From NCBI RefSeq assembly GCF_006345805.1, contig NC_043001.1:127038001-127102000 (forward strand): 64,000 nt of DNA, given 5' to 3'. This DNA comes from Octopus sinensis. Lineage: Eukaryota. Positions 7,738 to 54,738 of the stretch are shown piece after piece (position 1 is the stretch's first letter; each line of letters starts with the position of its first letter). The notes beneath the pieces are model-generated. The model had not been told where the DNA came from. It made no database searches and was given only the letters and a program-made list of their open reading frames with translations. The position numbers and the translations under genes are program-made.

Positions 7738-7813
<76 letters not shown>

Positions 7814-7930
7814 ATAGAGGGCTTATTACACATAAATGCCTCACATAAGAGGGACAAAGTCATTACTACCAAAATTATACTATCATACCCAAATGCAGTT
7901 TTTCAAAGCAGACATTTAAAAAATGAATTT

Positions 7931-7988
7931 AGTTCTGTATCACCGTGATTTCACATTCAACTTACGTCTTATGATCATCAGCAGAACT
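7931..7988 (-). ncRNA. Type I hammerhead ribozyme (copy 1 of 4)
   Basis: aguucug-CUGAUGA-ucau..augu-GAAA-ucac g guga-UA-cagaacu, with a 7-bp helix I. Confidence 0.85.
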
Positions 7989-8383
7989 GATTCTGAACAC
8001 ATCATAAATAACTACCACCTTACGTAGCGAAGACGAACAGACAACTGCCCACTCCGCCAAGCACATGGAATGTTTATAAATCATATATCCGGTAAATGGC
8101 GGGCTTTTTACGAACTGCATTCGGGTAATGAAAAGTATTCGGAATAAGTTTAACAATTAAGGATAATCTCTTAATAAGAATATCGGGTAGTTAGCGTGAA
8201 ACCTCATAAAAGAAAGAATTCGAAATATTTTTTTTCTTTTGAACAATTAATTATATCTATATTGTATAGAGGGCATTATTAACATAAATGCCTCACACTA
8301 AGGGACAAAGTCATTACTACCAAAATTATACTAATCATACCCAAATGCAGTTTTTCAAAGCAAGACATTTAAAAAATGAATTT

Positions 8384-8441
8384 AGTTCTGTATCACCGTG
8401 ATTTCACATTCAACTTACGTCTTATGATCATCAGCAGAACT
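8384..8441 (-). ncRNA. Type I hammerhead ribozyme (copy 2 of 4)
   Basis: Identical to 7931-7988. Confidence 0.85.
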
Positions 8442-8516
8442 GATTCTGAACACATCATAAATAAACTACCAACCTTACGTAGCGAAGACGAACAGACAAC
8501 TGCCCACTCCATATAT

Positions 8517-8558
<42 letters not shown>

Positions 8559-8681
8559 TGTATAGAGGGCATTATTACACATAAATGCCTCACACTAAGA
8601 GGGACAAAGTCATTACTACCAAAATTATACTAATCATACCCAAATGCAGTTTTTCAAAGCAAGACATTTAAAAAATGATTT

Positions 8682-8739
8682 AGTTCTGTATCACCGTGAT
8701 TTCACATTCAACTTACTACTTATGATCATCAGCAGAACT
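8682..8739 (-). ncRNA. Type I hammerhead ribozyme (copy 3 of 4)
   Basis: Same core, with a minor change in loop 2. Confidence 0.85.
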
Positions 8740-9150
8740 GATTTGAACACATCATAAATAAACTACCAACCTTACGTAGCGAAGACGAACAGACACTGCC
8801 CACTCCCGCCAAGCACATGGAATGTTTATAAATCATATATCCGGTAAATGGCGGGCTTTTTACGAACTGCATTCGGGTACAATGAAAAGTATTTCGGAAT
8901 AAGTTTAACAATTAAGGATAATCTCTTATAAGAAATTATCGGGTATTTAGCGTGAAACCTCATAAAAGAAAGAATTCGAAAATAATTTTTTCTTTTGAAC
9001 AAATTAATTATATCTATAGTTGTATAGAGGGCATTATTACACATAAATGCCTCACACTAAGAGGGACAAAGTCATTACTACTACTACCAAAAATTATCTA
9101 AATCATCCCAAATGCAGTTTTTCAAAGCAAGACATTTAAAAAATGAATTT

Positions 9151-9208
9151 AGTTCTGTATCACCGTGATTTCACATTCAACTTACGTCTTATGATCATCA
9201 GCAGAACT
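9151..9208 (-). ncRNA. Type I hammerhead ribozyme (copy 4 of 4)
   Basis: Identical to 7931-7988. Confidence 0.85.
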
Positions 9209-9532
9209 GATTCTGAACACATCATAAATAAACTACCAACCTTACGTAGCGAAGACGAACAGACAACTGCCCACTCCATATATATATATATATAATATAT
9301 ATATATATATAATATATATAGTTCAGCAACAATTAAGATTCAAATGAATATGGTACTTAATTTAGATGCACTAGAATTTTTTATGGTATGAGTTTTGGTC
9401 TGGTTGGCATCCTAACTACACTCCCTCATGTTCCTGAGATTCATATCTACATCTTTATCTGTATATTTACCTTTCCTAAGATGTTACTAATTGATTTGAA
9501 AGTTTTTATATTATTGGAAAACATATATAAAA

Positions 9533-37868: not shown

Positions 37869-37886
37869 CTGCGTCCTATTTTGGTG

Positions 37887-37980
37887 ACTTTGCTGACGAG
37901 ACAACCAAGCGTAAACGGATTTAATTTAATTTAATAAATTTGATTGCGTGAAGATGTTGAAACCTTGCAGGGTACAAAGT
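37887..37980 (+). ncRNA. Type I hammerhead ribozyme with long helix II
   Basis: acuuug-CUGACGA-gaca...uguu-GAAA-ccuugcaggg-UA-caaagu. Confidence 0.88.
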
Positions 37981-38365
37981 TTAAGGGGATAATGTTTTTT
38001 ATTTTCCTCTAGTTTCAGAATTCTACTATATTTTTTGCGGTTTTGAGTTTAGCTGCTCTTTTCAAGTGAGTCGAACGACCTTCTCAGGGTCATTCCTTAA
38101 TATTTTGTTGAATGTATAATATAGTCTGTGGACTATTTCTATTTTCTCACTTGACCGCTGGTGGCAGAAATTTTTCTTGAATTTTTGTTACCCTTATATT
38201 GATTGATTAATGAATTTTTGACTAATTCTGAAACTTGTATCAGCAGCTTATATTTGCTGCGGAGTAGATGGCGCGATTACGTTGAATTCGAAAATTTACG
38301 ATATATAGACCCGAGGCTTAGATGGTGTAGCCTCGTGTGTATATATATCTGCTCCTATTTTGGTG

Positions 38366-50625: not shown

Positions 50626-51537
50626 ATGTCCAGAGGCATGGAGACGTGACGAGCTGGATTTATTCGTACGAGCATGGGAGTGCGCCGGCGAGATAGTCCT
50701 AGCGAGGTGATTGCGGCTGCGCTGAAGAGCAGAGGCTACAAGAGGACAGCGGCTCAGATGGAGCGAAAGAGACAGGATTCGTCGTGCGCTCATATGCGCT
50801 TGTACGGTCGCACATTGGCGCACTTGATGCCATCTTTGAGAACGAGCGGGGCAAAGATGGCAAGAATGGAGACGATGAAAGAAGTCACCCCCACCTGGTG
50901 GACGCCCAGGAGGAGGTTTTGTATGAGAAACCTGCCCGGGAAGTGAACCCAGGTGCAAGTTCTCCAACCGGCAGCAAGGGCCATGGAGACGGAGAACCCG
51001 GTGAAGAGGTAGAGGGAGGAAGAAGAACTAAAAGAAGGACTGGAAGAGCTAAAGGAAAAGAAAAAGCTCAAGCAGGACCAAAGAGAGAAACAACCAGGAG
51101 TAGAAGTGGAACCGCAAAGGATGGAACCAAACAGCGCACACGGGTGTGTATGTTCTATCTGAGAGGTTCCTGCTGGCACGGAAAGGAAGGTGCAGGCTGC
51201 CGCTTTGCACATCGGGGACCCTGCCACAGAGACACGAGGCAGATGGACGAACCATCAACACAAAGAAAAGGGATGGACTACGCACCACTGCCCCAAAGGG
51301 AGGTACGCAGATGTTGTGCGCGCCACAAACAGCCAACATGATGTTGTCGAAAGAGCAGCTGCTGAGCAACAATCTTTTTTGTGCATGGCACAAAAGATTG
51401 TACAGCAGCTGACCTGGCTTCATCAAACCCAAGTCCGCAGGTGGGACTACCCACTATATACCAGACCACCACAGCAAACAGACACAGGATGGACACCGCC
51501 GGCAACAACGTACACCTCACCTCGATACTCCTACTGA
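50626..51537 (+). pseudogene. LINE ORF1 (frameshifted) with a CCCH zinc finger
   Basis: CMFYLRGSCWHGKEGAGCRFAH after a basic low-complexity linker. Confidence 0.65.
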
Positions 51538-54500
51538 ACATCAGAGGACTGCAAACACTCAGTAACAGGTCAAAGATCCCGTTCCTGAGAGACTTGTTGC
51601 ATGCAATCAAGCCATGCATAGCACTTACAGAAACGCACCTGAAACCGGACATAGCAGATGCGGAGTTACACATACCACAGTATGCTGTACTACGGACCGA
51701 CAGGAAAGAAAGGAGTCATGGAGGTGTTGCTATGTACATCCGTGGGACCTCACACCCCAGGTCCTCTTGTCATACTCAAACTCGGTGTGGACACACACTA
51801 ATTGTACATATTAGGCAACTTGATGTAGTTGTGTGTGCTACATATCGCCCTCCAGATGCCCCAAGCCATGTGGGCAAGTTTGAAGACTGCCTTATAAAAA
51901 TAGAAGAAATTCTAACCACATTAGAACAACACATAGGTGTGCTTCTTATGGGAGACTTCAATCTGCCCAATGTCAGATGGCCCGAGGGCCTTTCTCTCCC
52001 AGGAATGACAAGATGTGAACGAGGACAGGCGAGGTCCCTCCTGAACCTCATCAACCCCTGTACATGGAGCAGGTAATACTCCAACCAACCAGGGCAGGTA
52101 ACACACTGGATCTCTGCTTCACAAATGACATGGATCTCATCCATAATGTGAAAGTGACACCGACACTACTCTCGGATCACAACATGATAGAGCTGACCAT
52201 GTACGGGCCAAAAGAGAGCACGGACATGCAGCCTACAAGAAACCCTCAAAATCTTTCCAGCTTGAACTACCATAAGGCAAACTGGAAACAAATTGAGAAA
52301 GAGATCCTCAAACAAAACTGGCCTAAATGTCTCTCCTCGCCAGACATCGACGTGAAACTTCAACAATTCATGTCTGTAATGCAAGCCATATGCTACAAAT
52401 GTGTCCAGAGAGAAAGGCCACTGTACACAAGAACAAAATCCCCAGAGAGAGGAAATTTTAATGAGACGGCGTACGAAATTTTCAAATCGCCTAAACAAAC
52501 AGATTGAAAGCAGTGAAAAATCCCGCCTAAAAATAAAACTGTTGGAAATCGAAAAATGTCTGCAACTCTCCCATGAAAAAGAAAGAGCAGACAAAGAAGC
52601 CTGGGCTATAGAAAACATAAAATCTAACCCCAGAGCTTTCTACAGGTATGCCAAAGAAACAGCTACAGTGCACTGTAGAATAGGGCCACTCCTCGAAAAG
52701 GATGGCACACTTACTGGAAAACAATGAGGGTAAGTGAAATACTGAATGAGCAATTCAAGAGTGTTTTCACTCCACCCCTTGGTCATCTCCAAATCACCAA
52801 TCCAACTGACTTTTTTACCACTGCAGATATAAAATCAGAGGCGGCGACGATAGATTACATCGATATAAAGGAAGACGATGTAACCAAGGCTATAGATGAA
52901 ATGAAAACAGACTCAGCTACTGGCCCCGATGGATTCCCGGCAATCCTCCTAAAAGCATGTAAGAGAGTCCTAGCAAGACCACTGCAGTTCCTCTTTCAGA
53001 GCTTCCTTGCAGCTGGCAAACTTCCAGGAAAACTGAAGGAAGGTAAAATATGCCCCATTCATAAAGGAGGTAGCAGAGCGGAAGCCAAGAACTATAGACC
53101 TATCTCTCTGACCTCACACATCAGCAAGGTCATGGAACGAATAGTCAGAAGGAAGCTGATCACCTTCCTTGAAGAGAATGACTGCTGCCCGACACCCAAC
53201 ATGGTTTCCGACCAGGGAGAAGCTGTTTAACTCAGCTCCTACAACACTATGACTGGGTGCTGAAACGGGCTGTCAACCACTCAAATGTGGAAGTGATATA
53301 TCTCGACTTTGCAAAGGCCTTTGATAAAGTCGATCATGGAATGATATGTCACAAACTGCGTGATCTAACATAGTTGGAAAACTGGGAGAATGGCTTCATG
53401 ACTTTCTGAAGGATAGAAGTCAGGTGGTAGTAGCCAATGGGCCACCTCCATTAACACACAAATAGTGAGCGGTGTTCCGCAGGGCACTGTTCTGGGACCA
53501 CTACTGTTCATAATGGCCCTCTCAGACATGCCCTCAGCCACGCAGAGAGCCACGATCACAAGTTATGCAGATGATACAAAAGTTTCACAGGCAATACAGA
53601 ACCCTGAGGACACTAAACACCTGCAATGTGAGCTGGACGAAATATACAAGTGGGCTGAAAAGAATAGCATGCAGTTCAATGCTGGAAAGTTTCAAGCTTT
53701 ATACTATCAGCATGCAAAACTGATGCAATACCCAATGAATACACTGGACCCGGAGGGATTGCAATCCCAGAGGCACAATCAGTGCGTGACCGGGTATTCA
53801 CATGAGTGATGACGCGACCTTTCATGTACATGTTGCTAAACTGACAATGAAATGTAGACGGCTGGCTGGATGGATTCTTAGAACCTTTAGAACAAGAGAA
53901 CAAGAAACCATGATGGTCCTCTGGAAGACACTTGTCCTAAGCCACTTTGACTATTGCTCTCAGCTATGGTCACCATCCAGTGTCAAGTTGATCACAGAAC
54001 TTGAGGCGATCCAACGAAGCTACACAAAGAAGATAGCCTCTATGCAGAATGTAAGCTACTGGGAAAGACTCAAGAGATTAAAATTATATTCCCTGGAGCG
54101 TAGGCGGGAAAGATATGCAATAATATACATCTGGAAGATCCTGGAGGGAAGTGTCCTGAACTTTGGCATCGAGAGTTACGCAAATGCCAGAACTGACTCC
54201 AAACCTGCCATCAAGATGTAGGACAAGATTCTGTGATAGCCTGGGTTTCCGAGGCCCACAGCTCTTCAATATCCTCCCGAAGAACCTGAGAGACCTGCAT
54301 GGGGTGGATACAGATGTCTTTAAAATGAAGCTGGATCTCTTCCTGTCAGGTGTCCCAGATGAACCAACTTCACGGCAGGAGGGGCAGATGAGGGCAGCTG
54401 CATCGAACTCTCTCATGCACCAAATAGCAGTTGCTAAAAACCTCCATGAAGTGAAACCAAGTAGCAACACCAAATGGCGGTGCCCCAGCATGGCCACAGC
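51489..54500 (+). pseudogene. LINE ORF2 (APE endonuclease and reverse transcriptase), frameshifted
   Basis: Collinear motifs across ORF-track segments 51381-54555. Confidence 0.9.
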
Positions 54501-54738
54501 TCATAAGCTGAAACTAGAATCAATCAATCAATCAATCAATCAATCATATATATAATTTCAGCAAAACAATTAAGATTCAAGTGAATTCCATGAATTCAAA
54601 TGAATATGGTACTTAACTTAGATGCACCAGAATCTTTATGGTATTAACCATAAAATAATGTGGGGTGATTATAACCAAGAAAAAAGCAAAAAATCCATTC
54701 TTGTGCTTTTTTCTTGGTTATATTTATATATGATATAT

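What the first reader, a model, noticed from the sequence alone, without database searches (positions are those of the whole stretch)
7808..9278. Retrozyme-like element 1: paired direct repeats, each with an HHR
Seen: ~250-bp direct repeats flank a ~205-bp spacer. Predicted minus-strand cut sites are 7937/8 and 8390/1 (453 nt apart) and 8688/9 and 9157/8 (469 nt apart). Helix III has a 1-nt loop, so it should need two motifs to fold. The core is unusual, with an AUA triplet and U-U at the base of helix II. Inference: transcription would release a ~460-nt monomer able to circularise, as in known retrozymes.
Basis: partly seen in the sequence, partly recalled or inferred. Interest (0 to 1): 0.85.

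Follow-up and report, generated by a model that had tools for sequence, protein, structure and literature searches.

The report
Penelope-driven retrozyme with twin priming ends
This is a truncated, locally doubled copy of a repeat family whose ~480-base unit carries a hammerhead ribozyme motif and sits in TA microsatellites across the genome; its two fixed ends, paired one of each in inverted insertions, suggest it is likely pasted in from a predicted circular RNA by a Penelope-type retrotransposon enzyme priming twice.

Summary
Observation confirmed: four type I hammerhead motifs on the minus strand at the stated cut sites. The unit is not an LTR pair plus spacer. It is a 5'-truncated 1.5-mer of a ~480-nt tandem monomer, doubled between TA tracts. 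The 453 vs 469 nt difference comes from small indels. The family has 1262 exact ribozyme cores genome-wide; a 72%-identical sister family and relatives add 2303, with compensatory changes in helix I. So it is a non-LTR retrozyme. AUA and U-U both have natural precedent. New here: copies end at one of two fixed 3' sites ~130 nt apart, both fused to (TA)n. Inverted insertions carry one of each: 43 of 43 pairs on contigs C1-C4, p~8e-14. All units and both arms of an insertion share one haplotype (0.35% vs 1.8% between loci). This is the Penelope 'tail/inversion' footprint, and a TA-targeting Penelope-like element is abundant here. Likely mechanism: twin-primed rolling-circle reverse transcription. 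Cleavage, circular RNA and the actual partner enzyme are untested.

The parts
7810..8510 (-). Copy 1: 5'-truncated 1.5-mer of the retrozyme unit (RNA-sense 5' end at 8510 = monomer position 362; 3' end at fixed end A, 7810)
8558..9277 (-). Copy 2: duplicate of copy 1 (same 5' end, same end A, same 13-nt deletion, same haplotype)
7931..7988 (-). Type I hammerhead motif, predicted cut 7937/8
8384..8441 (-). Type I hammerhead motif, predicted cut 8390/1
8682..8739 (-). Type I hammerhead motif, predicted cut 8688/9; distal helix II damaged (mutation or assembly error)
9151..9208 (-). Type I hammerhead motif, predicted cut 9157/8
7938..8390 (-). Predicted released monomer of copy 1 (453 nt as assembled; circular fold z -5.1 against 40 shuffles)
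8689..9157 (-). Predicted released monomer of copy 2 (469 nt as assembled; circular fold z -2.6)
8144..8261 (-). The ~120-130-nt 'tail' between fixed end A and fixed end B (end B motif at 8144-8154, internal here), with a conserved hairpin just 5' of end B; second copy 8899-9019
7749..7809 (.). (TA)n target tract fused to end A of copy 1
8511..8557 (.). (TA)n tract between the two copies
9278..9320 (.). (TA)n tract at the truncated 5' end of copy 2

Best explanation
It is a 5'-truncated, locally doubled insertion of a hammerhead-carrying tandem repeat family (a non-LTR retrozyme) that sits in (TA)n tracts and ends at one of two fixed sites, and it likely spreads when predicted self-cleaved, circularised ~480-nt RNA is copied by a Penelope-like element (PLE) enzyme that would prime twice on one template. 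Steps: (1) multimeric transcripts self-cleave at each hammerhead and a host ligase closes the monomer (inferred from other retrozymes, PMC7229834). (2) A PLE GIY-YIG/RT protein, probably a dimer, nicks both strands of a (TA)n tract (inferred). (3) One nick primes at internal site A and the other at site B, ~130 nt downstream, each ~10-16 nt behind a conserved hairpin (fixed ends shown; priming inferred). (4) Each cDNA runs round the circle a variable number of times, and the two are joined 5'-to-5', giving head-to-head arrays with one A and one B end (architecture shown; rolling circle inferred). (5) At this locus only an A-primed arm of ~700 nt is present, and it was later doubled between its TA tracts, or doubled by the assembler (undecided).
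For: Tandem arrays: 175 full units in 59 loci, median 479 nt. Core letters C3-A6, G8, A9 and G12-A15.1 show no substitution (one gap at most) in 175 units, while N7 varies C/U/G. Helix I pairs 4 and 5 switch U-A to C-G and U-A to G-U/G-C between families; 10.1-11.1 is U-U, A-U or G-U (380 motifs, overlapping loci not de-duplicated). Circular fold z -5.7 and -5.4 for the two families; antisense -2.9. Fixed ends lie 3' and variable ends 5' on the ribozyme strand. 319 exact A/(TA) and 242 exact B/(TA) junctions, reversed-pattern controls 0. 43 of 43 divergent end pairs on C1-C4 are A+B, p=7.8e-14 if ends were drawn independently. 61 of 61 resolvable inverted insertions in fetched loci are A+B (overlapping set), and 14 of 14 in the sister family. 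Arms can be disjoint (L091, L113), or either arm can be longer (A 23, B 36), so one is not a copy of the other. Units within an arm differ by 0.34%, opposite arms by 0.35%, different loci by 1.78%. 5' ends do not pile up at the cut site. Abundant PLEs with 781-aa RT+GIY-YIG ORFs are TA-flanked and have two 3' ends 38 nt apart. Inversion plus a tail at one end is the published PLE signature, and the tail lies between two RT start sites (PMC8557442, PMC3846280, PMC11167929).
Against: No sequence link to the PLEs examined: best match 18 nt, E>=0.19, over 38 loci. No convincing hammerhead in 30 PLE loci (one weak hit). So the partner is not identified, and the tail (~130 nt) is far longer than the 30-40 nt of PLEs. 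The isolated motif does not fold into the catalytic form as its minimum-energy structure (z 0.03; -7.2 vs -13.3 kcal/mol). In a published test only 1 of 9 predicted Xenopus retrozyme dimers cleaved (10.64898/2026.07.22.740005). Two arrays (L040, L115) show a variant shared by some units only, which a single monomer circle does not explain. 8 of 61 inverted pairs have coincident 5' points against 2.7 expected, hinting at fold-back events. In vitro, PAc used both start sites on both strands and did not need HHR cleavage (PMC11167929).
Confidence: 0.72

Rival explanations
1. Same PLE-driven twin priming, but the template is a long linear multimeric transcript of an existing array, with no circle; arrays grow afterwards by unequal exchange.
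For: Partly shared variants within L040 and L115. In the PAc system unprocessed RNA was the main insertion substrate and HHR mutants inserted normally (PMC11167929). The 2026 preprint favours local amplification (10.64898/2026.07.22.740005, discussion).
Against: Many distinct haplotypes are each fixed across all units and both arms of an insertion, which a one-unit bottleneck explains most simply. The ribozyme core and compact circular fold are conserved in two families 72% alike.
Confidence: 0.15
2. One priming only: the inverted arm arises by fold-back (U-turn) on nascent cDNA or by self-priming, as proposed for palindromic PLE junctions.
For: 8 of 61 pairs have 5' points within 10 nt of each other, against 2.7 expected. 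Palindromic junctions are described for PLEs (PMC3846280, discussion passages).
Against: 53 of 61 pairs have non-coincident 5' points. In L091 and L113 the arms share no sequence. Either arm can be the longer one.
Confidence: 0.08
3. Ordinary satellite or SINE-like repeat moved by a LINE, with a vestigial or chance hammerhead; the local repeats are an assembly artefact.
For: Indel-rich differences between the two window copies point to consensus errors. Rfam finds nothing.
Against: The internal repeat recurs in scores of loci. The core is invariant except at N7, with compensatory helix I changes. No poly(A) tail; two fixed internal ends. Only the local doubling can be an artefact.
Confidence: 0.05

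Closest known systems
Metazoan non-LTR retrozymes (coral, mussel, axolotl; Cervera and de la Pena 2020, PMC7229834; methods end, results and discussion read)
   Same: Tandem units with one type I hammerhead each, low GC (0.33), no ORF/LTR, compact predicted circle, palindromic helix III, co-occurrence with PLEs. U-U at the base of helix II as in HHR_Amex2.
   Different: Unit ~480 nt (150-450 bp there). Strict (TA)n targeting, two fixed 3' ends and head-to-head arrays are not described in the parts read. The circular minimum-energy fold pairs up the core, whereas most animal circles there leave it free. Expression, cleavage and circles are shown there, untested here.
Vertebrate retrozymes as non-autonomous PLE derivatives (bioRxiv 10.64898/2026.07.22.740005; abstract to discussion read, supplements closed)
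   Same: PLE dependence proposed; size within their 51-972 bp range.
   Different: Their evidence is co-occurrence and pLTR homology in 35 species, with no mollusc among the classes listed. Here there is no homology to the PLEs examined, but an insertion-mechanism footprint.
EN+ Penelope-like elements (Neptune/Nematis, Naiad, Poseidon PAc; PMC8557442 passages, PMC3846280 passages, PMC11167929 main text)
   Same: 5' truncation, partial tandems, an inverted 5'-truncated copy, a tail at one end only, AT-rich or (TA)n targets, two internal RT start sites.
   Different: No protein. Canonical rather than minimal hammerhead. Tail ~130 nt instead of 30-40. Arms are multi-unit arrays. The one-A-one-B rule is counted here.
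Plant LTR retrozymes (as described in PMC7229834 and the 2026 preprint)
   Same: The window copy superficially has two ribozyme-bearing direct repeats around a spacer.
   Different: Type I not type III motif, no 4-bp TSD, variable 5' ends, tandem arrays elsewhere: not this class.

Membership tests
non-LTR retrozyme | [quoted passage not shown] | tested here: met
   175 full units in 59 loci, median 479 nt
non-LTR retrozyme | Conserved HHR core with base-paired helices | tested here: met
   only N7 varies in the core; two compensatory pairs in helix I between families
non-LTR retrozyme | Non-coding, low GC, no LTR-type ends | tested here: met
   GC 0.33; no complex ORF of 130 aa or more over the element; variable 5' ends. 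PBS/PPT were not searched separately.
non-LTR retrozyme | Highly self-paired predicted circular monomer | tested here: met
   z -5.65, -5.38 (40 shuffles each)
non-LTR retrozyme | Self-cleavage in vitro | not testable with these tools
   needs a transcription/cleavage assay
non-LTR retrozyme | Expressed as linear and circular monomer RNA | tested here: inconclusive
   only assembled contigs of runs not on record as RNA; these cannot show ends, strand or circularity
non-autonomous PLE-mobilised element | 5' truncation, head-to-head inverted copy, tail at one end only | tested here: met
non-autonomous PLE-mobilised element | Autonomous EN+ PLE with the same target preference in the genome | tested here: met
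non-autonomous PLE-mobilised element | Sequence homology to the pLTR of a specific autonomous PLE | tested here: inconclusive
   none in 38 PLE loci, but only 150 of 5029 GIY-YIG candidates were scored and 38 loci fetched
plant LTR retrozyme | Type III HHR in LTRs with 4-bp TSD | tested here: not met
   type I motif, tandem arrays, (TA)n-fused ends

The most novel reading that the evidence does not exclude
A PLE enzyme dimer grips one circular ribozyme RNA at two dedicated sites ~130 nt apart and primes each cut strand of a TA microsatellite at a different site. Two reverse transcriptases chase each other round the circle and deposit back-to-back arrays. This would be direct genomic evidence for twin-primed rolling-circle retrotransposition, would explain the PLE tail/inversion puzzle, and comes with a second parasite: a 1.7-kb non-LTR element that inserts at one site inside these retrozymes.
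Probability: 0.5. Interest if true: 0.82.

Novelty: new variant of a known kind. Interest (0 to 1): 0.62.

Why it matters
How animal retrozymes are written back into DNA, and why Penelope-like elements leave inverted copies with a tail on one side, are both stated as open in the papers read (PMC7229834 discussion; PMC8557442 passages; PMC11167929). This young family (1.8% between loci) gives hundreds of clean insertion records with a strict rule: one A end and one B end, one haplotype per event. It names a ~480-nt RNA, two priming sites, a (TA)n target and candidate 781-aa enzymes, so the twin-primed rolling-circle model can be tested in vitro. The element class itself is known. Searches for a report in this host group, for retrozyme tails/inversions and for elements targeting retrozymes listed no such paper; the library lacks most subscription journals, and the preprint's supplements were closed.

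Tried and rejected
Rfam scans: only microsatellite-driven miRNA-like hits, no hammerhead model. Public runs: no RNA holder listed. Contigs laid on the locus (4 of 24 listed runs): one 509-nt contig of run X1 (RNA is only a guess) covers one full unit with ~30 nt of terminal overlap. A circle and a tandem array would both assemble that way, and its alignment gaps indicate it keeps the 13 nt that the window copies lack, so it is not used as evidence and says nothing on this locus. Search for the autonomous partner: 54 unpaired ends and 6 long pairs were fetched; none led into a PLE ORF in the ORF list. BLAST of both monomers against 38 PLE loci was blank. A Pfam accession recalled for a PLE helix-turn-helix domain was not in the library. 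The first pattern for the PLE tail end matched only its own locus; the corrected one gave 59. A relaxed hammerhead rescan of the window printed nothing because the script kept only the first possible cut per motif; stands. LTR-retrozyme reading rejected (type I, arrays). A linear cleaved monomer as template rejected: arms run through the cut site and 5' ends are spread over the unit (172 ends). Earlier scan notes: none found. No promoter was identified or formally searched for. Whether the local doubling is real could not be decided without raw reads.

Full report
Observation. The four repeats and four minus-strand type I hammerhead motifs are present exactly as described. The two 1.5-mers (7810-8510, 8558-9277) lie between (TA)n tracts and share both ends. 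They differ by 4 substitutions and 26 small indels. Both lack the same 13 nt in a hairpin loop, a deletion seen in 6 of 293 such hairpins, 2 of them here. I read them as one insertion, doubled. The same whole-insertion doubling between TA tracts is seen at L121 and L133; real unequal exchange and assembler duplication cannot be told apart here. Rfam does not recognise the motif.

Family. The window lies in a 2.72-Gb animal assembly. A DNA search gave 1684 candidate places, 39 scored. The 38 best loci are tandem arrays with periods of 466-486 nt. Across 98 fetched loci and the window, 175 full units in 59 loci have a median of 479 nt. An 18-nt core pattern occurs 1262 times with G in loop III and 2303 times with another base (reversed controls 0). 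The 30 loci fetched from the latter belong to a sister family, ~72% identical, with the same period.

Ribozyme. In 175 family-1 units the core letters show no substitutions except at N7 (C 127, U 32, G 15). Loop II varies GUAA/GCAA and so stays GNRA. Across both families (380 motifs, overlapping loci counted more than once), helix I pair 4 is U-A 284 / C-G 96 and pair 5 is U-A 284 / G-U 83 / G-C 11. Pair 10.1-11.1 is U-U 327, A-U 37, G-U 16, and the triplet is AUA in 379 (helix III was part of the search pattern for the sister family, so its conservation there is by construction). AUA is natural in ELVd(+), where it is the slowest of four triplets tested (PMC1636495, abstract). U-U occurs in axolotl HHR_Amex2, which cleaves weakly alone and better as a dimer (PMC7229834). 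Helix III is predicted unstable as a hairpin (0 kcal/mol) and stable as a duplex (-11.9), so a dimer is favoured but not proven. Against: the isolated motif's best fold is not the catalytic one. Circular monomers fold far better than shuffles (z -5.65 and -5.38; window copies -5.06 and -2.58; antisense -2.91; 40 shuffles each), with helix I formed and the core paired away.

Insertion anatomy, the main new result. On the ribozyme strand, 5' ends are scattered over the unit (172 ends, no pile-up at the cut site). 3' ends fall at two sites, A (unit position ~132-143) and B (~268-270), both fused to (TA)n. Exact junction patterns give 319 A and 242 B ends. On contigs C1-C4, for which both lists are complete (94 A, 78 B), 43 divergent pairs lie within 15 kb, and all 43 are A+B. 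One further neighbour pair is two B ends facing into one TA tract; chance is 7.8e-14. In the 98 fetched loci (partly the same), 69 inverted insertions were seen. Of these, 61 have both ends resolved and all are A+B; 6 were cut by the fetch edge and 2 were irregular (L072, outer ends A and B; L076, one arm ending at 435). 30 loci show one arm; several of these carry a very short B remnant in the flank (L074, L101-L103). The sister family ends at the homologous two sites, and 14 of 14 resolved inverted insertions are A+B (L140's A end read). In both families each end lies ~10-16 nt behind a conserved hairpin; the one before B keeps pairing through a U-A to C-G change. Units in one arm differ by 0.34% (242 pairs), opposite arms by 0.35% (95 pairs), different loci by 1.78% (14,888 pairs), and many haplotypes are fixed per insertion. 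Exceptions are L040 and L115. A shared haplotype shows one source, not strictly one molecule. Arms may be disjoint (L091, L113), and either may be longer (A 23, B 36 of 59), which excludes simple copying of one arm from the other. However, 8 of 61 pairs have coincident 5' points (2.7 expected), so fold-back may contribute.

Partner. An inverted 5'-truncated copy and a 30-40-bp tail at one end only are the hallmark of EN+ PLEs (PMC8557442, PMC3846280; passages read). In the anole PLE the tail lies between two internal RT start sites, both target strands are cut and extended, and a dimer is predicted (PMC11167929, main text). G000 holds many GIY-YIG elements (147 matches among 150 scored of 5029 candidates). 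Full-length copies encode 781 aa with RVT_1 and GIY-YIG and a CxxxxCxxC linker, which PMC8557442 ascribes to Neptune/Nematis. They are fused to (TA)n and end at two sites 38 nt apart, the second behind a small hairpin. There are 475 and 59 exact junctions; by eye the C1-C2 lists give 2 divergent pairs, both mixed. But the retrozyme has no detectable homology to 38 PLE loci, so this shows a compatible machinery, not the partner.

Mechanism. Shown: arrays, conserved ribozyme anatomy, TA targeting, two fixed ends, one-of-each pairing, per-insertion homogeneity. Inferred: cleavage, circularisation by a host ligase (as in PMC7229834), PLE enzyme, two primings on one template, rolling-circle extension, 5'-5' joining. 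The window copy is the one-armed outcome, A-primed and stopped after ~700 nt. It still has two motifs, so a read-through transcript could release one ~468-nt unit per copy and a 298-nt hybrid between copies; no promoter or transcript of this locus is known.

Comparison and novelty. It meets the testable criteria for a non-LTR retrozyme. PLE dependence of such elements is already proposed (PMC7229834; 10.64898/2026.07.22.740005). I found no paper on this host group, on fixed twin ends in retrozymes, or on elements that target them (listings only, except the papers cited). PMC4209133 (first quarter read) and PMC3088659 (passages) cover palindromic helix III and dimers. Supplements were not seen and may list such motifs. 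Verdict: new variant of a known kind, interest 0.62.

Noticed in passing
L123:1830-3530, L127:1044-2738; loci L159-L188: A young 1.7-kb element (96% between copies, A-rich 3' end, zinc-knuckle-like frame, no significant Pfam hit) is inserted at one site of the retrozyme unit (positions ~367-385, ~19-23-bp duplication) in both families: 9 of 30 fetched loci, 8 of 26 distinct sites. 13 of 26 are at one site of another TA-flanked repeat, and 5 elsewhere. Its own 5' end resembles the retrozyme target. Looks like a semi-target-specific, non-autonomous non-LTR element (663 candidates, 39 scored).
   Followed up: partly
L129-L158 (e.g. L155): Sister retrozyme family, ~72% identical, ~480-nt unit, more numerous core pattern (2303), textbook 4-bp helix II with GUAA loop, duplicated hairpin before end A, same A/B ends.
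   Followed up: yes
L219-L225, e.g. L220:930-4830: Young (TA)n-targeting Neptune/Nematis-type PLE with intact 781-aa ORF, ~1-kb 3' region with repeated TGACGTC motifs and a 38-nt tail; a second family of 775 aa in L224/L226.
   Followed up: partly
L161-L183 flanks: A further TA-flanked repeat with tandem and inverted copies, the main target of the 1.7-kb element; possibly another non-autonomous PLE-type element; no hammerhead recognised by eye.
   Followed up: partly
L121, L133, L049: Whole insertions doubled in tandem between TA tracts (L121, L133), as in the window; L049 holds two independent inverted insertions 200 bp apart.
   Followed up: partly
window 9325-9500: A high-copy repeat (SINE-like, by the many contigs that fit it) starts right behind the last TA tract.
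   Followed up: no
window 51366-54550 (+): Broken LINE-like endonuclease/reverse-transcriptase frames, recognised by eye from the translation.
   Followed up: no
window 37886-37981 (+): One more descriptor hit for a type I hammerhead with a 59-nt AT-rich loop II; probably chance.
   Followed up: no
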